DNA of 64,000 nt from Candidatus Latescibacterota bacterium (GTDB lineage Bacteria > Latescibacterota > UBA2968), in NCBI GenBank assembly GCA_965205975.1, contig OZ242195.1, positions 3,030,656-3,094,655 on the forward strand, written 5' to 3'. Every line of letters begins with the position of its first letter. The first letter of the stretch is position 1. Positions 52,862 to 62,984 of the stretch are shown here, in pieces. Both the position numbers and the translations under genes were made by a program. The notes beneath the pieces were generated by a model. The model was not told the DNA's origin, searched no databases, and worked only from the letters and a program-made list of their open reading frames with translations.

Positions 52862-53863
52862 CTACTTGGTGAATTTCTGTTGTTCAATACAAGAGACTAT
52901 GACCTCCGTTGTGTCTTCCCACTTTTTATTTTCAGGTTTGACTCGCGGAACTCTATTGCTAAGATTTGCCAATATTTCTTTAGTCACCTTACCAAGATCA
53001 GGGATTATTAATTGTCCACTCTCGACTAATTCTCGGTTTATGCACATTTCCCTTCTTCCAAGATAGATAGTAGGTACTCCTAAGAGAGCCCCTTCCCTTG
53101 CAACAGTATCTCCAGTAGTTACCACCAGGGCTGAATAGTAAATCAGGGAATGGATACTGGGACAAGGTTCAACAACCTTTCGGAAATTGGGGTGTTCAAA
53201 CTCGAGATTTATTCCCCGTTCAAGGGAGGCTATGATGCTCATTCCAGTATTTAAAATCGCATTCGTCGCTTGCATAACTTCTTCCTGACCCAGGCGTCGA
53301 TAGTTCATGCTAATAGGTGCAACATACCTGACGAAAACATACTCTCCTGGCTGAACGCCATAATCACCTAAAATCTTCGGTTGCGGGACGAATCGGTTCA
53401 AGTAAGCCAACTCTTTGAACCCGTTGTATTGAATGATGTTTCTGCCTGCCACTCCGAGTGCTTCAGGTAAGACAAGTTGATGAGCGAATAAAAGACATGG
53501 CCAAAAATTTAGCTTGTATTCGAAGTCGTCATAAAAAATCACAGACCGTACGCGACAAAACCGCGAAACTATGCCCGAATAGAATCCACAACTCGCCAAA
53601 ACATCTGTCTCCATTTCGCATACTATCTTCTTGAGATCAACGACCCTTTCCCATACCCCAAACATCTTTCTAACACCAGTTCTATGAGCACCCATTACAC
53701 GAAAGGAACAAGGGAGGTCTGACTCCGCTATGGCAACAAGGTTACCTCTTTGCCTGACAACAGCCGACACATCGTGTCTCGCCTTCAACGATTTGATGGC
53801 TGAATTAAAAAAATTGAGATGTGCGACGTGAAGAATGTCAAAGAGAATCTTCAAAGGTAGCAT
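52862..53863 (-). CDS. DUF354-family protein (GT-B/epimerase-like fold, common in sugar-modification loci).
   Basis: The N-terminal LKILFDILHVAHLNFF matches the DUF354 (W)IDI.N.PHV.FF pattern. 333 aa. Confidence 0.45.
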   Translation of the reverse strand: MLPLKILFDILHVAHLNFFNSAIKSLKARHDVSAVVRQRGNLVAIAESDLPCSFRVMGAHRTGVRKMFGVWERVVDLKKIVCEMETDVLASCGFYSGIVSRFCRVRSVIFYDDFEYKLNFWPCLLFAHQLVLPEALGVAGRNIIQYNGFKELAYLNRFVPQPKILGDYGVQPGEYVFVRYVAPISMNYRRLGQEEVMQATNAILNTGMSIIASLERGINLEFEHPNFRKVVEPCPSIHSLIYYSALVVTTGDTVAREGALLGVPTIYLGRREMCINRELVESGQLIIPDLGKVTKEILANLSNRVPRVKPENKKWEDTTEVIVSCIEQQKFTK

Positions 53864-53903
53864 CCTAAATTAGCCAAGTGATCTCTGTCCAAGTTCTATT
53901 GAT

Positions 53904-54137
53904 TTAATAGCCGTCATGTGCAAATACATACACATACCAAGAGGCCTGTTCTGGTCCTACCCCATTAGGGGGAGCTTCACAACCCCAAATTTTAGCGAGT
54001 CGAGTCACTTCTTGCTGGGCTTCCCTCTTAGAATTATAATGCGCCACAGTCTTCCAGTTTCTGAAGGAGCGGAACCTGGAACGCCAATATCGCTTTCGCT
54101 CGTCGGGATCCATCGTAATTCCAACTCGACAGGCCAT
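53904..54137 (-). CDS. Small basic hypothetical protein (77 aa) immediately 3' of the radical-SAM gene.
   Basis: ORF only, with reasonable codon usage. No recognisable family. Confidence 0.3.
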   Translation of the reverse strand: MACRVGITMDPDERKRYWRSRFRSFRNWKTVAHYNSKREAQQEVTRLAKIWGCEAPPNGVGPEQASWYVYVFAHDGY

Positions 54138-54154
54138 CTTTATCTCTTTATGGT

Positions 54155-55594
54155 TTACGAGGTTATTTCCAGATTATATCGTCGCTGCAACAAAGACGCA
54201 TCCTCTTCTGCAATCTCCATACACATCTCCATCGCCAGTTCATAGCGATAACGTGTCTGTTCACAAGCAACAGGGTTGGGGTACATCGGGTCCCCCGTCG
54301 TCGTCCGAGCATCCCAAAGACATCCACCACCACACAGATTGCGCGCCCAGCATGTCTTGCACTCTGGGCGATTATTCACATTGAACTGCGCGTCAAAATG
54401 CTGCTGCTTTTCGCGATCAATACCCACAAACACATCACCCATCTTAAACTCGGGTGCATCGGCCAGACTCGAGCAAAAATAAATTGATCCATCTGCTGCA
54501 ATAGCCAGATACTGCTTACCACCCAGGCATCCATGACAGGATTTTGCGCGCGTCAGCAATTTCTGAATCCGCGGATCAAACTCTTCACTCTCTTCACCAT
54601 TCAGAATAGCTTTGAGCGCACGGCGGCTCCGCCTGTAAATTTGTTGTTTCAAAACAGGTATGTGTTCTTCCCGAATGGCATAAGGCGCATCGGGGGAGAC
54701 AACCGCCGGACCGATGAGCGCGTTATCAGTACCCAATGAGCGCAAATCATCGGCAATCTCATCCTCATCCATATCATACGCTGTCATAATAGCTTGCAGG
54801 TACACGCGCTCAGGTGCCTCAGCAGTCAATTTCTGTACATTCTTTGCCACGACATCATAAGTACCAGAACCATTGTGAAACTTGCGAATACGGTCCTGTG
54901 TCTTACGTCCGCCATCCAGGCTGACTTTAATTTGAAACTTTTCATCGATCAAGAACTGCTTCATCTCGTCGGTCAACAGCGTGCCATTGGTCACAATGCC
55001 AAAACCAACCTGCACTCCCAGGCACGCGCCCAGAGATTTGGCAAATGGGACAAGCTCTCTCATCAATGGAAAATTCAGAAGCGGCTCCCCGCCAAAAAAA
55101 TCAATCTGGCACCGCCCCAAAGCCTGAGCTTCGGTGATGATCCAGCGTATCGATTGCTCGGCAACATCGGGTTGCATCAGCATCGCCTTACCGCCATAAT
55201 CCCCGCCATGTGCAAAGCAATAAGCACACTGAATATTGCATGTATGCGAAACGTGCAGCGACACCTGCAAACGATCTGTCTGTGATACCCCACAAGCTGC
55301 CACCCCTTCTGTCGTCGGCACCTGGGACACCAGAAGCAATGCACCATCCGCAATCAACCCCACCTGTGCCAATTCCTCAATAGCCTCGGCAATTTCCTCT
55401 GCCTCGTATTGATCGGCCAACGTCTGGACAACCTGTGAAGCAGATAAGCCCTCGCAACATTCTAAAATTGATTTGAAAAGGGGATCCAGTTCAAAAAACA
55501 GACCTGTCTCAATCTGATAGACAATCGGCTGATTTTGCTCTTCAGTTTGAAAAAGATGTATGTCGCATTTCTGAATGCATAGCATGCCAGGCAC
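54155..55594 (-). CDS. Radical SAM / SPASM-domain enzyme (peptide-modifying maturase or anSME-like).
   Basis: CNIQCAYC (CxxxCxxC) radical-SAM cluster motif. C-terminal SPASM cysteine array CHGCLGGKQY...FCSS...CKTCWARNLCGGGCLWD. 479 aa. Confidence 0.8.
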   Translation of the reverse strand: MPGMLCIQKCDIHLFQTEEQNQPIVYQIETGLFFELDPLFKSILECCEGLSASQVVQTLADQYEAEEIAEAIEELAQVGLIADGALLLVSQVPTTEGVAACGVSQTDRLQVSLHVSHTCNIQCAYCFAHGGDYGGKAMLMQPDVAEQSIRWIITEAQALGRCQIDFFGGEPLLNFPLMRELVPFAKSLGACLGVQVGFGIVTNGTLLTDEMKQFLIDEKFQIKVSLDGGRKTQDRIRKFHNGSGTYDVVAKNVQKLTAEAPERVYLQAIMTAYDMDEDEIADDLRSLGTDNALIGPAVVSPDAPYAIREEHIPVLKQQIYRRSRRALKAILNGEESEEFDPRIQKLLTRAKSCHGCLGGKQYLAIAADGSIYFCSSLADAPEFKMGDVFVGIDREKQQHFDAQFNVNNRPECKTCWARNLCGGGCLWDARTTTGDPMYPNPVACEQTRYRYELAMEMCMEIAEEDASLLQRRYNLEITS

Positions 55595-55613
55595 TCCTCA
55601 GAACAGATACAAT

Positions 55614-55790
55614 TTACTCAGGCTGATCAAAATTGTCCCAATCGTCATCATCAGGGAACGGCATGGGGGGAACAGTAATAGGATAAGGGGTACAGCCAAC
55701 TTCAAAACTATCCGTCGTCTGATATGTGCTAATACCACCCTCTTTATCCATTGTTCCATTGATCAAGATCAACTTGCGTCGAGTCGTCAT
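55614..55790 (-). CDS. Unannotated 58-aa ORF, putative precursor peptide for the adjacent radical-SAM/SPASM enzyme.
   Basis: GGAGGATAAT-ATG RBS. Translation MTTRRKLILINGTMDKEGGISTYQTTDSFEVGCTPYPITVPPMPFPDDDDWDNFDQPE. Ends 20 nt before the rSAM start codon. Below the 60-aa cutoff of the ORF track. Confidence 0.55.
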   Translation of the reverse strand: MTTRRKLILINGTMDKEGGISTYQTTDSFEVGCTPYPITVPPMPFPDDDDWDNFDQPE

Positions 55791-55849
55791 ATTATCCTCC
55801 TTAAATACAAAAATCTAAATGTCGTCATTGTCTTCGCTCCGTTTATATC

Positions 55850-55864
55850 GCAAGATCCGTGCCT
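55850..55864 (-). promoter_or_regulatory. Sigma-54 (-24/-12) promoter upstream of the peptide and rSAM operon.
   Basis: The minus strand reads AGGCACGGATCTTGC, which fits GG-N10-GC with TTGC at -12 (consensus TGGCAC-N5-TTGC). About 60 nt upstream of the peptide ATG. Confidence 0.55.
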
Positions 55865-55880
55865 AATAATGCATTAGCAT

Positions 55881-55920
55881 AAAAAAAAGCACTTAAAAAC
55901 TCTCAAGTGCTTGAAAAAAC
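55881..55920 (-). terminator. Rho-independent terminator downstream of the sigma-54 activator gene.
   Basis: On the minus strand, AAGCACUUGAGAGUUUUUAAGUGCUU followed by U8. Flanked by A/T runs on both sides. Confidence 0.6.
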
Positions 55921-55970
55921 AAGGAAATAAAATTTAAAAATTATTTGTACTGTAAATGCGGCATCCAGAT

Positions 55971-55999
55971 ATATGTGTACCTAATAGATACACATATAA
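55971..55999. promoter_or_regulatory. Palindrome ATATGTGTA-N9-TACACATAT, candidate enhancer (UAS) for the sigma-54 activator.
   Basis: Perfect 9-bp inverted arms about 110-140 bp upstream of the sigma-54 promoter, in an extremely AT-rich region. Confidence 0.4.
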
Positions 56000-56103
56000 C
56001 CGTTCATTTAGATAAAATATGCATAACCGATTGATTAATATAAAAATAAATTAAAGTGCATCTAAATGATACATTATTGTAAAATGATACACCCATTCAA
56101 CAT

Positions 56104-59100
56104 CTATCTCAACCCCAGACGATTCATCTTTCTATACAAGCTGGCGCGCACCAACCCCAGTTCTTCGGCCGTACGCTTAATATTACCCTCGTATTTTTCG
56201 AGCGCATCCATAATCAACCGTTTCTCATACTCCTGCATACTATCTTTTAAATGTCCCTGGTATTCGACAGAGACACCCGACATCGCGTGGCCGACAGCTT
56301 CCGAAAACAAATCGGGCGTAATTGCACCATCTTCTTCTACCAATGCAACCGCACGCCGAATCTCATTCTCCAACTCGCGCACATTACCCGGCCAGTTGTA
56401 ATTTGTAAGTGCCCTGATTGCACCTACTGTCAGCCCGCCAACCGACTTGTTTGCCTCTTCCTTTGCCCGAATGAGCAAATGTTCGGCCAATAACGGCACA
56501 TCTTCCATGCGTTCTCGTAAAGGCGGCATATCGATCTGAATCACGTGCAACCGATAATACAAATCTTCGCGGAAAGAGCCTTTTTCTACTTCTTTTTTTA
56601 AGTCTCGATTGGTCGCTGCAATAATGCGTACATCTACTGCGCGATCCTCTGTTTCTCCCACACGCCTAATCTCTCCTTCTTGCAACACCCGCAACAAACT
56701 CCTTTGCAATGGTGGCGGGGCATCGCCGATTTCATCTAAAAAGACCGTACCCCCATTAGCCGTCTCAAAAACCCCCTTATGATCTTCAGTCGCGCCAGTA
56801 AACGCCCCTTTTTTATGACCAAACAACTCACTCTGCAACAGCTCTGGTGAAAGGGCAGCACAATTTTGCGACAAAAAACGCTGGTCTTTACGTGTACTAT
56901 TGTAGTGTATGGAACGCGCAGCTAATTCTTTGCCAGTACCTGTTTTGCCTTGCACAAGCACGGGAATATCGCTTTTTGCCGCACGTTCTATAAGCCGGTA
57001 GATCGCCTGCATCGCATCACTTTGCCCAAACAGATCGCCAAGCTGGTGCTGTCTTTCGACCTCTTGCTGCAAATATCGCGCTTTCTCTTCCAATTGTTCG
57101 TACATCCTCGCATTGACCAGTGCTACACCCACCAGATTCGCAAATGCTTGTAAAAACGTCTGGTCTGCTTCAGAAAATGCGTTGCCTATGCCGCGATGAT
57201 CCACATATAGGGCACCCATTACACCTTCGCTAACATGAAATAGAGGCACACACAATACAGACCGAATGTTGTAGTCTATCACACTCTGATATTGATTTAG
57301 CCTATCGTCTGTTTGTGCATCAAGGCTCAAAACGGGTTCATTTGTTTCAATAACCCGACGAATAATACCCCCACTCAATTCTTCTGCATCATTCGATTCT
57401 AAATTGTGGTGGCGCACCACATCAACTACAAAGTCTTTTGGAGTCTCATTTTTAATCGCAACAATCACCCGCTCTGCTGAATAGACAGCCAACAAATTGC
57501 CCAAAGTTCCATCCAATAGCACCTTGACATCGTGCTCTGTTGTTAATTCCTGGCTCATATCATAGAGCAAATTCCAACGATCAACAGACAACGCACCAAC
57601 TGGAACCTCAGAACTGGATACGGTATCCTCACCGCGATGGAGCGTTGGAGCGGCATCCCTGCCGCGACCATCTTCGTCGCGAGATAATTGATTTAATAAC
57701 ACCTGTGTTTTCTCCAAAAAATAGGACATTTCCATTTCCTCAAACGCCTGTTTTGCCGCTTCGAGATGTGCTTGCGCTTTTGGCATATCATCGCGCTGGA
57801 GATAAAACTCCCCAGCCATCAGCAATGCCCGCGCCCAGTGGTCGCCTTTGGATTCTCTGCGACATTCAATTGCCTGCTCAAAAGCCTCTTCAGCCTCAGC
57901 AATTCGCCCTGCCTGAGCAAAAGCCGCACCAATACCGCAATATACCAGGGGCAATATGCCTGTGTACATACCCGATATTTGTTGCGTACCTTCTTTGGCT
58001 TTTTCAGCCCATTCAAGTGCTGTTTCACCATTTCCCATTCTCGCAGCAGCCGTTGCCGCAATTGCATAAGCGCGATAGATATAATCTTTTCGCGGTGTTT
58101 CCAAAAATCGCTCTGATGAAATCTCGGCATATTCCAATGCCTCGGCAAAATCATCGCGTTCCAGAGCCAATTCCCCAAGCCATAGGAAATTTGCTGCTTC
58201 CCAATACACACCCCCTCGCTTCTGCCACTCACCAATGACCTCATAACAAACGGCTTCAGCACCATTGAAATCCCCCAAATAAAAATAAATTCTTTGAAGT
58301 GCATTGAGTGCCCAAACGCGATGGTGCTCTAAACCAAGTTGTCTAAAGATCTTTACAACAGTTTCTAAATAGCCCTTAGCTGTCTCAAATCGAAATTCCA
58401 CTAATGCGGCCTGGCCTTCTCGTCCTTGTATAAAAGCCTGGTTTTGTGGATCTCCCGACTCACGGAGTTTCTCTATTTCCCGACGCATATACGCAATTGA
58501 TTCTTCGTGCCGACCAGACACATCACACAAATAAGACAAGCTGCTTAACGCCTGAATTTCGCCATCGAAATCACCGAGTTCACGATAAAGCTGCAATGCC
58601 TCCAGCATATATCCTTCTGCAATTTCACCATGTTGAAGTACGCTGTGAATCTCACCCTGGTCGTTTAAAATACGCGCTTTCAAATCTTTCCGATCAGCGG
58701 GCAATAATGCATTTGCTTCGTCTAAAAGTTTTAGTGCGCAATTGTATTCACTACAATTGCGAAACACATCTGCATAATCGCACAAAAAATCGATAGCATC
58801 TGCAGGTAATTCAAAAACGTCATCCGCTGTCCAGTCCCTCACTGCCTCGAACCGTCTCAATGCCTGGCGATACGCTTGTACCTCCAATGCTTTTTTACCC
58901 GCCAGACACATATATTTCACAGCCTTATCTCGTTCTTCTGCCGCCGCAAAATGATCCGCCAATTCTTCCGTCAATTCTTCTGCATCACCCGTCTCTTCCA
59001 GAGCATTGCCAATTTCTCGATGCAACAGACGCCGCCGCACATCTTGCATGCGGTCATAAATTGCACGCCGACACAAATCCTGTGAAAATCGATAGCGGTC

Positions 59101-60186
59101 TTCATCCTCTCCACAAGCAGCCAAAAGCCCTTCCGCAATCAAGTCATCCAGCATATCCAGCAATTCTAACTCATCACCGCGCCAAACTGCAGCCAATAAT
59201 TCGAAAGAAAAATCACTTAAAAAAACACAGGCGTATTCCAGCACCCGCTGTTGCATAGCAGGCAGGGTTGCTATGCGCCTGTACAAAACCTCTGAAAAGT
59301 CATTGGATAATAATGTTTCGGGAAACTCTCCCCACTGCCAATCGCCAGACACATCTTGCCGAACCACATCGGCATGCACCAGTGTCCTTATCGCCTCCAC
59401 GACAAACAGGGGTTGTCCGCCTGTTTCTCTGAACAGGGTTTGCAATGCATCCGACGGTATGGATCGCTCCCCTAACATCGACGCCGCTAAATATCCCACC
59501 TCTTCTTGTTGTAGATACTCCAACTGCATCTGGGTCGCTTCAGCAAATTCATTACTATGTATAAAATTCTCAATTTCCTCTGAAAGCGGTTCCAGATTAG
59601 ACCATCGGCAAGTCAGACATAACAAAAACGGGCACGGTTCTGGATCGCGCAACACATACTGCAAAAATTCCAGAGTCAATTCATCAAGCCATTGAATATC
59701 TTCCAAACACAACACAATGGGCTGTTTCTGTCGCAGACTTTTTAGTAACTGCAACCAGCGCTCCATAACAGAAAACTTGTCGGTCTCTAATGAATCGGGC
59801 AACTCTGCCATCAAATCCGTCGTCCCTTGAAAAGCCCTGATCAACGCACCGTATATTTGTCCGCCCTCTTCCTGCCCTGCGCCCTTCAAACATAGAAAAT
59901 CGTGGATCAGAGCGTCGCCCAACAGTTCTTCGGCCAGTCTCGATTTACCTACTCCCGCCTCACCCGAGATCAAAACCACGCGCTGCTTGCCAGCCTGTAC
60001 ATCCTGTAACATCGCACTCAGTATCTTCATTTCAGATTCCCGCCCGACAAATTGTGGGCGCACAACTTTTCTATGCACATCGCGCTGCTCGTCCTCCAGC
60101 AGCACAAGCTCCGATGGTAAGGCACGTACCAGTTCCTCTGCCGACTGATAACGATCAACACGCTCCTTTGCCAGCAACTTCAGCAC
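56104..60186 (-). CDS. Sigma-54-dependent transcriptional activator with a giant N-terminal sensor: STAND/AAA ATPase, TPR-like array, GAF, sigma-54 AAA+, Fis-type HTH. It is the C-terminal 1360 aa of a frameshift-split kinase fusion.
   Basis: P-loop VVLISGEAGVGKSRLAEELL. A long TPR-like helical-repeat region. GAF-like segment about residues 880-1030. Sigma-54 interaction domain VLVQGKTGTGKELAARSIHYNS...GAFTGA...GGTVFLDEIGD. C-terminal HTH IKRTAEELGLVRASLYRKMNRLGL. The first residues LKLLAKERVDRYQSAEELVRAL are the end of a protein-kinase domain. Confidence 0.75.
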   Translation of the reverse strand: MLKLLAKERVDRYQSAEELVRALPSELVLLEDEQRDVHRKVVRPQFVGRESEMKILSAMLQDVQAGKQRVVLISGEAGVGKSRLAEELLGDALIHDFLCLKGAGQEEGGQIYGALIRAFQGTTDLMAELPDSLETDKFSVMERWLQLLKSLRQKQPIVLCLEDIQWLDELTLEFLQYVLRDPEPCPFLLCLTCRWSNLEPLSEEIENFIHSNEFAEATQMQLEYLQQEEVGYLAASMLGERSIPSDALQTLFRETGGQPLFVVEAIRTLVHADVVRQDVSGDWQWGEFPETLLSNDFSEVLYRRIATLPAMQQRVLEYACVFLSDFSFELLAAVWRGDELELLDMLDDLIAEGLLAACGEDEDRYRFSQDLCRRAIYDRMQDVRRRLLHREIGNALEETGDAEELTEELADHFAAAEERDKAVKYMCLAGKKALEVQAYRQALRRFEAVRDWTADDVFELPADAIDFLCDYADVFRNCSEYNCALKLLDEANALLPADRKDLKARILNDQGEIHSVLQHGEIAEGYMLEALQLYRELGDFDGEIQALSSLSYLCDVSGRHEESIAYMRREIEKLRESGDPQNQAFIQGREGQAALVEFRFETAKGYLETVVKIFRQLGLEHHRVWALNALQRIYFYLGDFNGAEAVCYEVIGEWQKRGGVYWEAANFLWLGELALERDDFAEALEYAEISSERFLETPRKDYIYRAYAIAATAAARMGNGETALEWAEKAKEGTQQISGMYTGILPLVYCGIGAAFAQAGRIAEAEEAFEQAIECRRESKGDHWARALLMAGEFYLQRDDMPKAQAHLEAAKQAFEEMEMSYFLEKTQVLLNQLSRDEDGRGRDAAPTLHRGEDTVSSSEVPVGALSVDRWNLLYDMSQELTTEHDVKVLLDGTLGNLLAVYSAERVIVAIKNETPKDFVVDVVRHHNLESNDAEELSGGIIRRVIETNEPVLSLDAQTDDRLNQYQSVIDYNIRSVLCVPLFHVSEGVMGALYVDHRGIGNAFSEADQTFLQAFANLVGVALVNARMYEQLEEKARYLQQEVERQHQLGDLFGQSDAMQAIYRLIERAAKSDIPVLVQGKTGTGKELAARSIHYNSTRKDQRFLSQNCAALSPELLQSELFGHKKGAFTGATEDHKGVFETANGGTVFLDEIGDAPPPLQRSLLRVLQEGEIRRVGETEDRAVDVRIIAATNRDLKKEVEKGSFREDLYYRLHVIQIDMPPLRERMEDVPLLAEHLLIRAKEEANKSVGGLTVGAIRALTNYNWPGNVRELENEIRRAVALVEEDGAITPDLFSEAVGHAMSGVSVEYQGHLKDSMQEYEKRLIMDALEKYEGNIKRTAEELGLVRASLYRKMNRLGLR

Positions 60187-60961
60187 AATTTGTTGCGTCT
60201 CTTCGGGAACAGCGATATTGAACTTCGCCTATTGGTGGAGGTGACTCTCGAATATGCTTCATAATAACAGATATGGGATTTTGTCCAGAAAAGGGCGATG
60301 CGTCCGTGAGGACTTCGTATAAAATCACACCCAATGAGTACAAATCTGACCGATGATCCACCCACAACCCCTTACCCTGCTCTGGCGACATATATTCTGC
60401 CGTACCAATCGTTGCACCCGTCTGAGTAATGGAAGCACTGTGCAAATGTCTGAATTTCGCCAATCCCAGGTCCAGAATCGTGGTTTCAATCCCCTCTTTT
60501 GTCTCCAAAACCATAATATTGGATGGCTTGAGATCGCGATGCACTGCACCCTGAGCGTGGACATAAGCCAATCCATCGGCAATTTGTTGTATCAAGTCAA
60601 AAAAGTGAGACGTCCGGAATTGCTCTAACAGTACACGATCGGCAATAATTTTTTCCAATGTCTTTCCGGGCAAATATTCCATTGTAAAATAGGGACGGTC
60701 TTTGGCAAAGCCCCAGGTGTATGTGCGAACCAGACGCGGGTGCTGGAATCGGTTCAACACCTGAAACTCTCTGTGAAAACGACGGCGCACAGCCTGCTCA
60801 TCCATCATTTCATTCAAAATTTTGAGCGCGCAATCCCGATCTTGCTCCAGGTCCAAAACCCGATACACTTCACCCATGCCCCCGGCTCCCAGGTGCGCCT
60901 GGATCTGGTATCTTTTGTCGAGAATTGTGCCAATTTCGAACATACGCGTTATTCTTTGCAA
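60155..60961 (-). CDS. Ser/Thr protein kinase catalytic domain (Hanks-type), N-terminal part of the same gene as 56104..60186, across a frameshift.
   Basis: GAGGMGEVYRV...ALK (ATP-binding Lys), HRDLKPSNIM, DLGLAKF and GTAEYMSPEQ. The last about 20 residues of this frame are non-kinase-like. The kinase C-lobe end (AKFNIAVPEETQQIVLKLLAKERVDRYQSAEEL) continues in the frame of the downstream ORF. Confidence 0.8.
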   Translation of the reverse strand: MQRITRMFEIGTILDKRYQIQAHLGAGGMGEVYRVLDLEQDRDCALKILNEMMDEQAVRRRFHREFQVLNRFQHPRLVRTYTWGFAKDRPYFTMEYLPGKTLEKIIADRVLLEQFRTSHFFDLIQQIADGLAYVHAQGAVHRDLKPSNIMVLETKEGIETTILDLGLAKFRHLHSASITQTGATIGTAEYMSPEQGKGLWVDHRSDLYSLGVILYEVLTDASPFSGQNPISVIMKHIRESPPPIGEVQYRCSRRDATNCAEVAGKGAC

Positions 60962-61070
60962 GTTTTGATTGATATGTGAGATTAATAATGCGTAAGATTC
61001 AGAATTTTTTCAACCTTTTTGGCGACACGGGGCGCAGTTTGTTCTGTTGTATTTTTCAGACCCATCAATT

Positions 61071-62984
61071 CTAATTGAGATGGATAGCCCTGGCCTGTCT
61101 TTGCACCAACACCAGAACGAGAAAAATCGCCATCCCAATGACATGACATACCAGCAAAGGCCAGAGCATCAGAACCGCTGCCACCAGGAATAAGACGCGG
61201 TATAATACACTCAGCGACACCATATGAAAACCCTCAGAAGCCGCCGCAAAAGACAGCAATCCCAGAAGCGTAGCTATCGCAGTCTCAATAACGCGCCAGG
61301 TCTCTCCTTCAAAAAGGATGGGCGTGTAGCAAAAAAGCAGGGGAATAAAATAAATGCCCTTGGCAATGCGCCACGACTCAAAACCCGTACGCAGCGGATT
61401 TGCCCCCGCAATACCCGCAGCAGAATACGCAGCCAGACAAACCGGAGGCGTGACATTGGCATCCTGAGAATACCAGAAAATCAGCAAATGCGCCGCAATC
61501 AGACTCACCCCCAGATTGGTCAGCGCAGGCGCAGCCAGCACCGCGAGCACGATATAAGAAGCCGTCACCGGCAGACCCATGCCCAGAATCAGAGACGCAA
61601 TGGCAATAAGCACAACAGTAATGAGCACACTGCTTCCGGCAATCGCCGAAATGAGCAAAGAAAATTTGATCCCAACGCCAACCATCAGCACCACACCCAC
61701 AATAATACCCGCACACAGCAGAATAATACCCGTGGTAATCATATTGTGAGCACCCAGCGCAAGAGCATCGACAATATCGCGGATATTCATGCGCGTATTC
61801 TTATTCAACCAGCTCGCAACAACAATACTCGCGGTTCCCGTTGCCGCCGCAAACGTGGGTGTAAAACCGTAGATCAGTGTACCCACCAGCACCCCAATGG
61901 GAATCGCAAAATGCCAGCCTTCGCGGATCGTATCGCGGATATCCGGAAGTTCCGAAGCAGGCAAGGGCGCAATCCCCCGTTTTCGCGCGCGAAAATGAAT
62001 AAAAAAAGTAACACTCAAAAAATAGATAAGCGCCGGGATAAAAGACACACCTACAATGGTCAAATACGGAATCTGCGTCCACTGACTCATAATAAACGCA
62101 CCCGCACCCATAATCGGCGGCATGAGTTGACCGCCCGTAGATGCCGCCGCCTCGACCGCGCCTGAAAAAGTAGGCGAAAAACCCGTGCGCTTCATCATCG
62201 GAATCGTAAGCGAACCCGACCCCACCGTATTCGCCACAGCACTCCCCGAAATTGAACCGAGCATACCACTGGCAAAAACCGCCATCTTTGCCGGTCCACC
62301 CACCGTGCGCCCCAGCAGCGCGAGCGCCAGACGAATCATAAAATCGCCCGCACCCGAACGCAGGAGAAACGCGCCAAAAAGCACAAAAAGCGCGACAAAA
62401 GTAGATGAAATAGTCGCAATCGTCCCAAAAATACCATCGGGCGCGAAGTACATGCGGTAGAGCAAACGCGGAAATGACACCCCTGGAAACGCCCATATAC
62501 CCGAAATATATTGCCCCCAAAAAAGCGCGTAAGTGAGAAATACAAGCGCGAGCAGTGGAATAAAAAAACCCGTTGTCCGCCGGGTAATCTCGAGCAAAAG
62601 GAGAATCGCGATACCCGCAAAAATGAGATCAGCCGTATTCGGCACCTCATTGCGGGCGTGCAGTGCATCCTCAAAAAACACGAGATAAAGGGCGACGGCA
62701 ACAGATAGGATGGCGAAAAAATAATCGAGAATCAGCGTGCGCGGGGCATAGCGCGTAGAAACGGGATAAAGCAGATATCCCAAAAAAAGAATAAAGGCAT
62801 AATGAGCGGCATTGCGCTGTAATTCGGGCAAAACACCCAGCGTATTGCTCCACAGGTGAAACAGAGACAGGCAAACCCCCACAACAACGACGAGCACCTG
62901 ATGCCTGCCTGTAAGCACGCGATGCGGCGTACTCACTTCGCCGCCGTGATCCTGTTCAACTATGGTCCTATGAGATTCTGGCAT
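61071..62984 (-). CDS. TRAP transporter fused (DctQM-type) permease, TAXI-associated.
   Basis: 637 aa, highly hydrophobic with about 17 TM segments. Adjacent to a TAXI-family solute receptor gene. Confidence 0.7.
   Translation of the reverse strand: MPESHRTIVEQDHGGEVSTPHRVLTGRHQVLVVVVGVCLSLFHLWSNTLGVLPELQRNAAHYAFILFLGYLLYPVSTRYAPRTLILDYFFAILSVAVALYLVFFEDALHARNEVPNTADLIFAGIAILLLLEITRRTTGFFIPLLALVFLTYALFWGQYISGIWAFPGVSFPRLLYRMYFAPDGIFGTIATISSTFVALFVLFGAFLLRSGAGDFMIRLALALLGRTVGGPAKMAVFASGMLGSISGSAVANTVGSGSLTIPMMKRTGFSPTFSGAVEAAASTGGQLMPPIMGAGAFIMSQWTQIPYLTIVGVSFIPALIYFLSVTFFIHFRARKRGIAPLPASELPDIRDTIREGWHFAIPIGVLVGTLIYGFTPTFAAATGTASIVVASWLNKNTRMNIRDIVDALALGAHNMITTGIILLCAGIIVGVVLMVGVGIKFSLLISAIAGSSVLITVVLIAIASLILGMGLPVTASYIVLAVLAAPALTNLGVSLIAAHLLIFWYSQDANVTPPVCLAAYSAAGIAGANPLRTGFESWRIAKGIYFIPLLFCYTPILFEGETWRVIETAIATLLGLLSFAAASEGFHMVSLSVLYRVLFLVAAVLMLWPLLVCHVIGMAIFLVLVLVQRQARAIHLN

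What the first reader, a model, noticed from the sequence alone, without database searches (positions are those of the whole stretch)
53904..60961. Sigma-54 regulon candidate: kinase-fused enhancer-binding protein, sigma-54 promoter, cryptic 58-aa peptide and radical-SAM/SPASM enzyme
Taken in minus-strand order, the segment holds the following.
- A giant kinase/STAND/TPR/GAF/sigma-54 activator gene (60961-56104) ending in a strong terminator.
- A perfect palindrome (55971-55999) in an AT-rich spacer. A canonical -24/-12 sigma-54 promoter (AGGCAC-N5-TTGC, 55864-55850) lies about 110 bp from that palindrome.
- A strongly RBS-preceded 58-aa ORF that is not in the ORF track.
- An rSAM/SPASM enzyme 20 nt downstream of the peptide ORF.

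This is the architecture of a bEBP-controlled peptide-maturation operon. The peptide (single Cys, Pro/Thr/Tyr-rich core, poly-Asp/Trp acidic tail) does not resemble PqqA, SCIFF, mycofactocin or streptide precursors, so the product class appears undescribed.
Basis: partly seen in the sequence, partly recalled or inferred. Interest (0 to 1): 0.85.

Follow-up and report, generated by a model that had tools for sequence, protein, structure and literature searches.

The report
Sigma-54-controlled radical-SAM peptide cassette
This is a conserved three-gene unit of Latescibacterota bacteria, in which a giant signal-sensing activator switches on, through a sigma-54 promoter, a small fast-evolving peptide and the radical-SAM enzyme that most likely cross-links it; it is an undescribed peptide family with unusual wiring, and in this window the activator gene is broken by one extra base.

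Summary
All the reported elements are present, with corrections. The "giant gene" is two overlapping ORFs here. One extra T at 60221/60222, absent from 27 relatives, splits the kinase from the STAND-TPR-GAF-sigma-54 activator. The palindrome (55970-55998) has one mismatch and is the third of three activator sites.

- **Conservation:** kinase-activator, peptide and RRE-radical-SAM/SPASM enzyme are syntenic in about 40 loci, down to 40% enzyme identity.
- **Promoter region:** a GG-N10-GC promoter, an upstream hairpin-T-run terminator and an AAGGAGG ribosome-binding site are conserved.
- **Peptide:** it is coding (dN/dS 0.34). It has a conserved leader, one invariant Cys, a hypervariable six-residue stretch and a conserved acidic tail. 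No Pfam or NCBIfam model matches it.
- **Enzyme:** it is closest to thioether-forming maturases (SCIFF/CteB, QhpD, PapB), below every family cut-off, and is not a sulfatase maturase.
- **New findings:** genomes carry two or three paralogous cassettes. The activators' DNA-reading helices covary with their binding sites in three classes, never two of one class per genome. Peptide-core divergence tracks only the TPR domain (Mantel p about 0.001).

The cross-link chemistry and biological role remain inferred. Verdict: interpretation supported; a new variant of a known kind.

The parts
60155..60961 (-). Ser/Thr protein kinase domain ORF (268 aa; Pkinase residues 18-239 = 60910-60245). Its last ~22 codons are out of frame because of the insertion.
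   Evidence: HRDLKPSN, the G-loop GAGGMG and DLG are present.
60221..60222 (-). Frameshift site: TT here where all 27 aligned relatives have a single T (GAAGTTCAAT against GAAG-TCAAT). It splits the kinase from the rest of the activator.
   Evidence: alignment. (removing one T restores a 1618-aa ORF). (relatives have a single intact ORF).
56104..60186 (-). STAND-TPR-GAF-sigma-54 activator ORF (1360 aa). AAA_16/STAND with Walker A GEAGVGKS, 60054-59635. TPR 58560-57739. GAF 57534-57118. Sigma54_activat 57030-56533 with GAFTGA at 56808-56791. HTH_8 56235-56119, recognition helix VRASLYRKMNRL (class C).
56078..56092 (-). Upstream activator site 1 (GTGTATCATTTTACA), an imperfect inverted repeat immediately after the activator stop codon.
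   Evidence: conserved position in 31 cassettes. (direct repeat AAATGATACA x2). (coordinates).
56056..56074 (-). Upstream activator site 2 (ATGTATCATTTAGATGCAC).
55970..55998 (-). Upstream activator site 3: a 29-bp near-palindrome (TATATGTGTATCTA-T-TAGGTACACATATA, one mismatch). In class C relatives the site reads GTGTATC-N6-GATACAC. It is about 120 bp upstream of the -24 element.
   Evidence: 14-nt arms, 93% complementary. (conserved, and covaries with the HTH helix).
55914..55940 (-). Conserved AT-rich block (TTAAATTTTATyTCyTTGTTTTT) between site 3 and the hairpin. It may be a bending or IHF-type element; this is inference only.
   Evidence: columns at least 90% conserved. No functional test was made.
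55881..55912 (-). Intrinsic-terminator-like hairpin AAGCACTTGAG-N4-TTAAGTGCTT plus T8. It lies about 190 nt after the activator stop and about 16 nt upstream of the promoter motif.
   Evidence: (-13.4 kcal/mol, z -2.5). (conserved); distant loci have different stems of -13 to -19 kcal/mol (z -4.4 to -6.4) plus a T-run at the same place.
55850..55864 (-). Sigma-54 promoter, -24/-12 elements AGGCACGGATCTTGC. It lies 60-75 nt upstream of the peptide ATG, as in most relatives.
55796..55802 (-). Ribosome-binding site AAGGAGG, 5 nt before the peptide ATG.
   Evidence: (AAGGAGGATAAcATG conserved).
55614..55790 (-). Precursor peptide, 58 aa: MTTRRKLILINGTMDKEGGISTYQTTDSFEVGCTPYPITVPPMPFPDDDDWDNFDQPE. 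It has a leader KL.LINGT, an invariant Cys33, a hypervariable stretch at 34-39, and a conserved tail VPP.PFPDDDDWD.FD.
54155..55594 (-). Radical-SAM/SPASM peptide maturase (479 aa from GTG; likely start ATG 55585). PqqD/RRE 55522-55367. Radical_SAM with CNIQCAYC 55252-54755. SPASM 54529-54347.
   Evidence: (CteB 5WGG, 212 bits, residues 22-455; SPASM cysteines aligned).
53904..54137 (-). 77-aa protein of unknown function, starting 17 nt after the enzyme stop with no terminator between, so probably co-transcribed. It accompanies only some cassettes, mainly class C.

Best explanation
The segment is one copy of a conserved Latescibacterota regulatory and biosynthetic cassette.

**Proposed mechanism**
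1. A protein of about 1600 aa fuses a Ser/Thr kinase, a STAND NTPase, TPR repeats and a GAF domain to a sigma-54 AAA+ activator with a Fis-type HTH. It integrates an unknown signal.
2. It binds as dimers to three inverted-repeat sites that lie in the 3' untranslated tail of its own gene.
3. From there it activates a sigma-54 promoter about 120-240 bp downstream.
4. An intrinsic terminator sits between the binding sites and the promoter. It stops read-through from the activator gene, so the downstream operon depends strictly on activation.
5. The operon encodes a 58-aa precursor peptide and a radical-SAM/SPASM enzyme. The enzyme's N-terminal RRE domain binds the conserved leader (KL.LINGT).
6. 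The enzyme most likely installs one thioether cross-link from the single invariant Cys33 to a side-chain carbon of a nearby residue. Candidate acceptors are the nearly invariant Glu30 or an Asp of the conserved DDDD run. This would be ranthipeptide-type chemistry.
7. The six residues after the Cys are free to vary.

**Copy structure.** Genomes carry two or three such cassettes, insulated from each other by matched changes in HTH helix and binding site.

**This window.** The cassette is class C. A 1-nt insertion separates the kinase from the rest of the activator, so this copy may be silent or decaying unless the insertion is an assembly error.

**Shown:** gene content, synteny, motif conservation, coding constraint, and HTH/site covariation.
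**Inferred:** sigma-54-dependent transcription, enzyme-peptide pairing, the cross-link chemistry, and the terminator's role.
For: **Synteny.** Kinase-activator, peptide and enzyme occur in that order in all 28 close loci long enough to show it. They also occur in that order in distant loci with 40-54% enzyme identity. Enzyme homologs at 30-34% identity lack the activator, so the association defines a clade.

**Activator.** It has Sigma54_activat at 250 bits, GAFTGA and HTH_8.

**Promoter.** TGGCACGGATCTTGC-type motifs lie 60-75 nt before the ATG in 24 of 30 close cassettes under a strict pattern. The GGCAC and TTGC core columns are at least 90% conserved across all 31 aligned cassettes. GG-N10-GC promoters are also present in distant loci.

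**Three binding sites and covariation.** The half-sites covary with the HTH recognition helix:
- TRAGLQKK goes with GTGCATCC..GGATGCAC.
- TRVGLHKK goes with GTGTA(T/A)(C/A)C..(T/A)TACAC.
- (I/A)SLYRK goes with GTGTATC-N6-GATACAC.

No genome among 13 has two cassettes of one class.

**Terminator.** A hairpin plus T-run is conserved in structure but not in sequence.

**Peptide.**
- There are 28 database homologs with an invariant Cys, leader and tail.
- Pooled dN/dS is 0.36 for the leader, 0.76 for the Cys-plus-variable stretch and 0.17 for the tail. The enzyme gives 0.11.

**Enzyme.**
- It has RRE, CX3CX2C and a full SPASM cysteine set aligned to CteB.
- Its best family scores are all to thioether-forming maturases.
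- Those maturases make Cys-Thr, Cys-Asp, Cys-Glu and Cys-Asn thioethers (PMC8326336).
Against: - There are no expression data. The promoter motif alone is not above chance in the window.
- The enzyme is below the curated cut-off of every thioether maturase family, so the chemistry cannot be transferred with confidence.
- One distant locus (L061) has two tandem peptides, one of which has Ile where the Cys should be. Distant peptides also lack the Asp run. Neither the Cys nor the Asp acceptor is universal in the wider clade.
- The cassette contains no protease, exporter or immunity gene, so the fate of the product is unknown.
- In this window the activator is frameshifted. No Shine-Dalgarno sequence is visible before the downstream ORF's GTG. 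The operon may therefore not be inducible here.
- The presence of rpoN in this genome could not be checked.
Confidence: 0.7

Rival explanations
1. Same cassette, different chemistry. The enzyme makes a carbon-carbon or carbon-oxygen cross-link on the Pro- and aromatic-rich core (a cyclophane, streptide or darobactin-type link involving the conserved F/W/Y residues). The Cys would serve as an iron-sulfur ligand or handle rather than the cross-link donor.
For: - The enzyme misses all thioether-family cut-offs.
- L061 carries a tandem peptide with Ile in place of the Cys but the same (W/Y)P...FP..F core.
- Aromatic and Pro positions (PFP, W; C.WP.F.[VI]LPPP) are conserved across both the close and the distant peptides.
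- SPASM enzymes include C-C cyclases such as SuiB (PMC8326336).
Against: - Cyclophane and streptide-type families score far lower than thioether families. YhhB gives 87 bits and FxsB 74, against 225-266 for SCIFF, QhpD and PapB.
- The closest solved structure is the thioether-former CteB.
- The Cys is invariant in the 29 database peptides and in the 31 close-locus peptides.
Confidence: 0.2
2. Self-sensing signal circuit. The mature peptide is the ligand of the TPR domain of its own activator, giving a positive-feedback, quorum-sensing-like loop. Each genome would run two or three orthogonal channels. This would be functionally analogous to TPR-receptor/peptide systems of Firmicutes that control radical-SAM peptide operons.
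For: - Peptide-core distance correlates with TPR-domain distance (Spearman 0.30, Mantel p about 0.001). It does not correlate with the kinase (0.10), STAND (0.04), GAF (0.04) or the physically nearest HTH (-0.05). The AAA+ domain gives a weaker correlation (0.14, p about 0.02).
- The signal is localised to residues 800-860.
- TPR is the most variable structured domain.
- The peptide core is hypervariable and the circuits are insulated.
- The cassette has no exporter or immunity genes.
Against: - The correlation is weak and the visible association is only partial.
- Mantel tests are liberal with related sequences.
- No export or import route is evident, and no binding data exist.
- The peptide could equally be an antagonistic or structural product.
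Confidence: 0.15
3. In this particular genome the cassette is a decaying relic. The frameshift is real, the activator is not made, and the peptide operon is silent.
For: - The extra T is unique among 28 sequences.
- No ribosome-binding site is seen before the downstream ORF.
- Five other cassettes have split or internally deleted activators at other positions: L009, L013, L020, L024 and L028.
- Frameshifted peptide variants exist in the databases: P0157, P0159, P0160 and P0162.
Against: - The peptide, enzyme, promoter, binding sites and terminator are all intact in the window.
- A single-base indel may be an assembly error. No reads are available to check.
Confidence: 0.4
4. The enzyme is an anaerobic sulfatase-maturating enzyme serving the sulfatases of this genome, and the small ORF is spurious.
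For: - A sulfatase gene lies in the window at 33403-31850.
- anSME is a detectable homolog.
Against: - anSME scores 113 bits against a cut-off of 349, and against 266 for the SCIFF maturase.
- In the PDB search anSME gives 62 bits against 212 for CteB.
- The RRE domain is present.
- The small ORF is conserved, under purifying selection, and always adjacent.
- The sulfatase is 20 kb away.
Confidence: 0.01
5. The peptide is a precursor of a redox cofactor (like PqqA or mycofactocin) or a cross-linked enzyme subunit (like QhpC), not a free peptide product.
For: - QhpD is the second-best family hit at 255 bits.
- The cassette has no exporter or protease.
Against: - The region next to the Cys is hypervariable, which does not fit an invariant cofactor.
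- No qhpA/B, pqq or mft genes are adjacent.
- There are several divergent copies per genome.
Confidence: 0.04

Closest known systems
SCIFF / ranthipeptide systems (ScfA-ScfB; CteA-CteB of Clostridium thermocellum, PDB 5WGG)
   Same: - A two-gene peptide-plus-enzyme core without a dedicated protease or exporter.
- The enzyme has the same RRE, radical-SAM and SPASM architecture, with all cluster cysteines aligned. It gives the best NCBIfam and PDB hits.
- The expected chemistry is a thioether from Cys to a side-chain carbon (PMC8326336).
   Different: - The score of 266 bits is below the 425 cut-off, at about 31-33% identity.
- The peptide has one Cys, not six, and matches no SCIFF model.
- It occurs in Latescibacterota rather than Clostridia.
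- It is always coupled to a kinase-fused sigma-54 activator.
- It is multi-copy, with a hypervariable core.
PapB/freyrasin and QhpD/QhpC (Cys-Asp and Cys-Glu thioether formers)
   Same: - Both are high-scoring homologs, at 224 and 255 bits.
- The peptide offers conserved acidic candidates (Glu30, and Asp47-50) near its single Cys.
   Different: - It is below both cut-offs (340 and 453).
- It has no repeated Cys-X3-Asp motifs.
- It has no quinohemoprotein amine dehydrogenase genes.
- Distant clade members lack the Asp run.
TOMM system kinase/cyclase fusion protein (TIGR03903), a regulator linked to another class of modified-peptide clusters
   Same: - It has the same N-terminal Ser/Thr kinase, AAA_16/STAND and TPR layout.
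- The window's two ORFs hit it at 130 and 165 bits.
- In both cases the regulator sits next to a peptide-maturation cluster. For TIGR03903 this is from the family description and my own knowledge.
   Different: - The output domain here is GAF, sigma-54 AAA+ and HTH instead of an adenylate/guanylate cyclase.
- The scores are far below the 706 cut-off.
NifA / NtrC-type bacterial enhancer-binding proteins
   Same: - It has a GAF, AAA+ (GAFTGA) and Fis-type HTH core. It scores 396 bits to NifA and 372 to NorR.
- It has palindromic upstream sites about 100-250 bp from a GG-N10-GC promoter.
   Different: - It is below the equivalog cut-offs.
- It carries about 1100 extra N-terminal residues (kinase, STAND, TPR).
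- The binding sites lie in the 3' tail of the activator's own gene, upstream of a terminator.
Quorum-sensing-controlled radical-SAM peptide operons of streptococci (shp/rgg with streptide and related products)
   Same: The logic is the same: a repeat-domain (TPR-like) regulator sits next to a small peptide plus a radical-SAM enzyme operon (PMC9389541, listed; PMC8326336). A weak TPR/peptide-core covariation was seen here.
   Different: - The regulator family is unrelated (a sigma-54 activator against Rgg) and so is the enzyme subfamily.
- The phylum is different.
- No evidence exists here that the peptide is sensed.
GPMC system transcriptional regulator (NF038230) with the geopeptide radical-SAM maturase (TIGR04280)
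   Same: NCBIfam holds a sigma-54-type regulator model and a peptide maturase model from Geobacter/Pelobacter systems. Both are hit weakly, at 207 and 114 bits.
   Different: - Both are far below their cut-offs (1200 and 400).
- No literature was found.
- That these two models belong to one system is my own unverified reading of their names. The relation is a lead only.

Membership tests
Radical SAM / SPASM peptide maturases (superfamily level) | CX3CX2C radical-SAM cluster motif | tested here: met
   CNIQCAYC. Pfam Radical_SAM gives 57.8 bits against a 29.5 cut-off.
Radical SAM / SPASM peptide maturases (superfamily level) | C-terminal SPASM domain with the cysteines for two auxiliary 4Fe-4S clusters | tested here: met
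   Pfam SPASM gives 23.5 bits against a 21.5 cut-off. CHGC...C, CKTCWARNLCGGGC and ...C all align to the CteB cysteines.
Radical SAM / SPASM peptide maturases (superfamily level) | N-terminal RiPP recognition element (PqqD-like) | tested here: met
   Pfam PqqD, residues 25-76, gives 27.5 bits against a 23.4 cut-off.
SCIFF maturase ScfB (TIGR03974) | Score at or above the curated cut-off of 425 bits | tested here: not met
   266.5 bits.
SCIFF system | Precursor with six Cys in about 45 residues (SCIFF model) | tested here: not met
   The peptide has one Cys and no NCBIfam or Pfam hit at E up to 10.
PapB family ranthipeptide maturase (NF047865) | Score at or above 340 bits; repeated Cys-X3-Asp substrate motifs | tested here: not met
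   224.5 bits. The peptide has a single Cys and no CxxxD repeat.
QhpD (TIGR03906) | Score at or above 453 bits; adjacent quinohemoprotein amine dehydrogenase genes | tested here: not met
   254.7 bits. The neighbours are unrelated.
Anaerobic sulfatase maturase (TIGR03942) | Score at or above 349 bits; no RRE domain; acts on sulfatases | tested here: not met
   113.4 bits. An RRE domain is present. The enzyme is paired with a conserved peptide.
Ranthipeptides (product class) | Thioether between Cys sulfur and a non-alpha carbon of another residue | not testable with these tools
   This needs mass spectrometry and NMR of the modified peptide. Only homology to such enzymes is shown.
RiPP biosynthetic cluster (general) | Short precursor gene conserved next to the modifying enzyme, under coding constraint, with a conserved recognition region and a variable core | tested here: met
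   dN/dS is 0.34 overall and 0.76 in the Cys-plus-variable stretch.
Bacterial enhancer-binding proteins (sigma-54 activators) | AAA+ Sigma54_activat domain with the GAFTGA loop, plus a C-terminal HTH | tested here: met
   PF00158 gives 250 bits. GAFTGA is at residue 1127. HTH_8 gives 45.8 bits.
Sigma-54-dependent promoter | GG-N10-GC (-24/-12) motif at a conserved position, with upstream activator sites | tested here: met
Sigma-54-dependent promoter | Transcription start about 12 nt downstream that depends on rpoN and the activator | not testable with these tools
   No transcript data are available. rpoN could not be sought outside the window.
NifA (TIGR01817) / NorR (NF003451) | Score at or above the curated cut-off (529 / 476 bits) | tested here: not met
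   395.6 and 371.6 bits, covering only the C-terminal third of the protein.
TOMM kinase/cyclase fusion (TIGR03903) | Score at or above 706 bits; C-terminal cyclase domain | tested here: not met
   130 and 165 bits. The output domain is a sigma-54 activator, not a cyclase.

The most novel reading that the evidence does not exclude
Latescibacterota run two or three orthogonal, self-contained peptide-signalling channels. In each, a kinase-STAND-TPR-GAF sigma-54 activator senses, through its TPR domain, the radical-SAM-modified peptide whose operon it switches on. Private DNA sites (HTH/site covariation) and private ligands (TPR/peptide-core covariation) keep the channels apart. This would be a sigma-54-based counterpart of the peptide quorum-sensing systems of Firmicutes, in an uncultured phylum.
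Probability: 0.15. Interest if true: 0.85.

Novelty: new variant of a known kind. Interest (0 to 1): 0.62.

Why it matters
- **New precursor family.** It adds a defined precursor family, with a single Cys, a hypervariable core and an acidic tail, to the radical-SAM peptide natural products. Its enzyme subfamily is not covered by any curated model. It comes from an uncultured phylum that sponge-microbiome surveys rate as biosynthetically rich (PMC9426513).
- **Unusually readable regulation.** Sigma-54 promoters have no basal activity. Here an activator gene, three binding sites, an insulating terminator, a promoter and the target operon are packed into 7 kb.
- **Natural orthogonal parts.** The three versions differ in helix and binding-site specificity. 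This is a clear natural example of how paralogous enhancer-binding circuits avoid cross-talk, and a possible source of orthogonal parts.
- **Undescribed sensor.** I found no description of a fusion of a eukaryote-like kinase and a STAND/TPR module to a sigma-54 activator. What it senses is open.
- **Directly testable.** The predictions can be tested with two or three cloned genes.

Tried and rejected
- **Sulfatase-maturase reading:** rejected on scores and on the RRE domain.
- **Known RNA element in the spacer:** no Rfam hit at E up to 1 in 53800-61100.
- **Peptide as a member of a known precursor family:** no Pfam or NCBIfam hit even at E up to 10.
- **Wider peptide family:** a profile search of 1.84 billion representative proteins found only 14 hits. 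All were close relatives or frameshifted copies. The distant clade's peptides were found only through synteny.
- **Promoter significance from the motif alone:** not significant in the window. I relied on conservation instead.
- **Second cassette copy in the window:** none found.
- **Orthology signal in the enzyme gene:** none. Nucleotide identity is about 0.89-0.91 whatever the genome or class, and slightly higher within a genome (0.907). This suggests concerted evolution but does not prove it.
- **The 77-aa protein:**
  - It has only 3 database clusters.
  - The model is confident.
  - Its function is left unknown.
- **Flanking genes of the paralogous cassettes:** they differ (GT2 glycosyltransferase, TPR protein, DUF5686, a PspF-like short activator, a UvrD helicase). 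They are not part of the unit.
- **Literature:** six searches for a description of this system, and one for "geopeptide", returned nothing relevant.
- **Programmed frameshift:** considered unlikely. The other disrupted copies are broken at different positions.

Full report
**1. What is in the sequence**

Genes are described in minus-strand order.

- Two overlapping ORFs, 60961-60155 and 60186-56104, together carry these domains: Pkinase, AAA_16/STAND, TPR, GAF, Sigma54_activat, an AAA+ lid and HTH_8.
- The kinase catalytic motifs, the STAND Walker A motif and the GAFTGA loop are all present.
- A 313-nt AT-rich spacer follows.
- Next comes a 58-aa ORF (55790-55614) behind an AAGGAGG ribosome-binding site.
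- Next comes a 479-aa radical-SAM/SPASM ORF (55594-54155) with an N-terminal PqqD/RRE domain.
- Last comes a 77-aa ORF (54137-53904).

The reported palindrome is really at 55970-55998, with 14-nt arms and one mismatch.

A hairpin with a T8 tail lies at 55912-55881, at -13.4 kcal/mol. It is about 16 nt upstream of the promoter motif.

**2. The activator gene is broken in this window**

I aligned the kinase/STAND junction with 27 relatives. The window alone has TT where all the others have a single T, at 60221/60222.

- Deleting one T gives a continuous 1618-aa protein.
- Twenty-two close relatives and four distant loci (L029, L030, L032, L034) have one intact ORF of about 1600-1690 codons.
- Five other cassettes are disrupted at other positions: L009, L013, L020, L024 and L028.

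This is either an assembly error or one of several independent decay events. I could not decide which without reads.

**3. It is a conserved unit**

A scan of one genome per species with the enzyme sequence returned 57 loci. Thirty-eight of them (L001-L038) are close or moderately distant relatives. Nearly all come from metagenome-assembled genomes labelled Latescibacterota.

- In every locus long enough to show it, the order is kinase-activator, small ORF, enzyme.
- The same order holds in a second Latescibacterota lineage, with enzyme identity about 52% and activator identity about 40% (L029, L030, L032, L034).
- It also holds in three contigs reached through database homologs at 54%, 43% and 40% identity.
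- Enzyme homologs at 30-34% identity sit in unrelated contexts without the activator. The association therefore defines a clade whose boundary lies near 37% identity.
- Locus L021 shares the window's flanking genes, so it is the positional ortholog: tctA-like 93%, DUF354 96% and a UDP-sugar dehydrogenase 94% amino-acid identity.
- Within that ortholog the cassette has diverged much more than its flanks: activator 80%, peptide 64%, enzyme 87%.

**4. The peptide is real and has a characteristic shape**

Twenty-eight database homologs and the peptides read from the loci align as follows:

M.TRRKL.LINGT.D.EG.I..Y....S.E.(G)C-[six variable residues]-VPP.PFPDDDDWD.FDQ..

Cys33, the LINGT leader and the PFPDD tail are invariant.

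Pooled Nei-Gojobori estimates across 31 cassettes:

| Region | dN/dS |
|---|---|
| Peptide leader | 0.36 |
| Eight codons from the Cys | 0.76 |
| Peptide tail | 0.17 |
| Whole peptide | 0.34 |
| Enzyme | 0.11 |

So the ORF is under coding constraint, and the stretch next to the Cys is nearly free to vary.

- The family is narrow. A profile search of 1.84 billion representative proteins found 14 hits, several of them frameshifted copies.
- Peptides of the distant clade keep a (K)L.(L)(I/V)N(G) leader and a Cys followed by a Pro- and aromatic-rich core (C.WP.F.[VI]LPPP). They lack the Asp run.
- One locus, L061, has two tandem peptides. One of them has Ile at the Cys position.

**5. The enzyme**

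NCBIfam ranks it nearest to thioether-forming maturases, but below every curated cut-off:

| Family | Score (bits) | Cut-off (bits) |
|---|---|---|
| SCIFF maturase | 266 | 425 |
| QhpD | 255 | 453 |
| Nif11-type maturase | 246 | 519 |
| PapB | 224 | 340 |
| Anaerobic sulfatase maturase | 113 | 349 |

- The closest solved structure is CteB (5WGG) at 212 bits over residues 22-455. The radical-SAM and SPASM cysteines are aligned.
- These relatives make Cys-Thr, Cys-Asp, Cys-Glu and Cys-Asn thioethers to side-chain carbons (PMC8326336).
- A single thioether from Cys33 is therefore the most economical prediction. The nearly invariant Glu30 or the Asp run are candidate acceptors.
- The Cys-less tandem peptide and the missed cut-offs keep a different cross-link open as a rival.

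**6. The regulatory region**

I aligned 31 spacers. They show the following, in order:

1. Two adjacent inverted repeats right after the activator stop codon.
2. A third inverted repeat about 80 bp further on.
3. A conserved AT-rich block.
4. The hairpin with its T-run.
5. TGGCACGGATCTTGC. The first base is A in the window and in several relatives.
6. AAGGAGGATAACATG.

A strict promoter pattern matched 24 of 30 close cassettes at 38-81 nt before the annotated ATG. After start-codon refinement the range is 60-75 nt.

Seven of the eight distant loci have different hairpin stems, at -13 to -19 kcal/mol with z from -4.4 to -6.4, each followed by a T-run. L030 carries the same hairpin sequence as L029. 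A GG-N10-GC promoter follows within a few to about 15 nt in six of the eight loci. L060 has only a weaker GG-N10-GT, and none was detected in L037. The terminator-then-promoter arrangement is thus conserved in structure, not in sequence. I read it as a device that stops read-through from the activator gene, so that the operon depends on activation. This reading is inference.

The motif alone is not above chance in the window, with 8 matches against 5.4 expected. No Rfam family matches the region.

**7. Three insulated classes**

The half-site sequence of all three repeats covaries with the HTH recognition helix:

| Class | HTH recognition helix | Binding site |
|---|---|---|
| A | TRAGLQKKINRL | GTGCATCC-N4-GGATGCAC |
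| B | TRVGLHKKINRL | GTGTATCC or GTGTAAAC ... ATACAC or TTTACAC |
| C | (A/V)R(I/A)SLYRK(I/M)NRL | GTGTATC-N6-GATACAC |

- The window is class C.
- The 13 genomes with more than one cassette hold two or three. None holds two of the same class.
- HTH identity is 0.83 within a class and 0.74 between classes. The other domains do not separate by class.
- Enzyme nucleotide identity is about 0.89-0.91 whatever the class or genome, and slightly higher within a genome. This hints at homogenisation among copies.

**8. A hint of peptide sensing**

Among 23 intact cassettes, pairwise distance in the peptide core correlates with distance in the TPR domain. Spearman rho is 0.30 and the Mantel p is about 0.001.

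- It does not correlate with the kinase (0.10), STAND (0.04), GAF (0.04) or the adjacent HTH (-0.05).
- The AAA+ domain gives a weaker correlation, 0.14 with p about 0.02.
- The signal is localised to residues 800-860, one of the most variable stretches.
- By eye, the five C.PY(S/T)F.VPL peptides all go with an (E/D)AQNKAIVQ(V/G)REG(M/V)VAL version of this segment. The association is not exclusive.

This is suggestive only.

**9. Surroundings**

- The 77-aa gene starts 17 nt after the enzyme stop, and no terminator was found between them.
- It accompanies mainly class C cassettes. Class A cassettes are instead followed by a PspF-like short sigma-54 activator.
- It has only three database clusters, a confident beta-alpha-beta-alpha-beta model, and no convincing fold match.
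- Further downstream in the window lie DUF354, a UDP-sugar dehydrogenase, an S8 peptidase-DUF1611 fusion, a redoxin, and two propeller-plus-MacB-permease pairs.
- These genes are not seen next to the paralogous cassettes examined. I do not count them as part of the unit.

**10. Comparison and verdict**

The unit works like a ranthipeptide/SCIFF-type peptide-maturation pair under an NtrC/NifA-type enhancer-binding activator. It fails the curated membership thresholds of every named family tested.

- The activator's N-terminal layout parallels the TOMM kinase/cyclase fusion protein, with the output domain exchanged.
- Literature searches found no description of this system.
- Sponge-microbiome surveys note Latescibacterota as biosynthetically rich, without describing this cassette.

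I rate it a new variant of a known kind. The chemistry, the signal and the biological role remain inferred.

Noticed in passing
window 20418-20432 (-): A perfect sigma-54 consensus, TGGCACGGTGTTTGC. It lies just after the stop of a 778-aa ORF (22771-20435) and about 100 nt upstream of a 362-aa ORF (20318-19230). By eye the 778-aa ORF looks like a penicillin-acylase-type hydrolase; this was not tested. The motif may be a second sigma-54 promoter in the window.
   Followed up: no
window 50879-39573 (-): Downstream on the same strand lie an S8 peptidase fused to a DUF1611 P-loop domain (50879-48978) and an AhpC/redoxin (48834-48112). Two tandem pairs follow, each a DUF5128 six-bladed propeller plus a MacB/FtsX-type permease (47652-46525 with 46474-43994; 43219-42125 with 42074-39573). 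They could supply protease and export functions. They were not seen next to the paralogous cassettes examined.
   Followed up: partly
window 38824-37640 (-): An intact Mutator/IS256-family transposase gene (Pfam Transposase_mut, 421 bits).
   Followed up: no
window 33403-31850 (-): A sulfatase gene (Pfam Sulfatase, 161 bits) lies 20 kb from the radical-SAM gene. It is relevant only as the possible client of a sulfatase maturase, a reading that was rejected.
   Followed up: yes
L003 9497-10534 (also L010, L018, L019, L023, L025, L027, L031): Class A cassettes are followed, about 70-160 nt after the enzyme gene, by a short (about 345 aa) sigma-54 activator. It has only the AAA+ and HTH domains (PspF-like), at 41% identity to the big activator's C-terminus. 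Its role is unknown.
   Followed up: partly
L061 6471-7017; L037, L038, L060 downstream of the enzyme: Distant cassettes vary. L061 has two tandem precursor peptides, one without the Cys. L037 and L038 carry a second, 25%-identical radical-SAM-like gene right after the first. L060 has a 457-aa gene at the same position that was not compared. L058, L060 and L061 have glycosyltransferase genes next.
   Followed up: partly
P0157, P0159, P0160, P0162 (database peptides); L009, L013, L020, L024, L028 (activators): Several copies of the peptide and of the activator in other assemblies are frameshifted or internally deleted at different positions. This suggests recurrent decay of individual cassettes, or assembly errors.
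   Followed up: partly
All close cassettes (L001-L035) compared with the window: Enzyme genes of different classes and genomes are almost equally similar, at about 0.89-0.91 nucleotide identity. The value is slightly higher within a genome (0.907) than between orthologous classes (0.892). This star-like pattern suggests gene conversion among paralogs.
   Followed up: partly
[not shown]
   Followed up: yes
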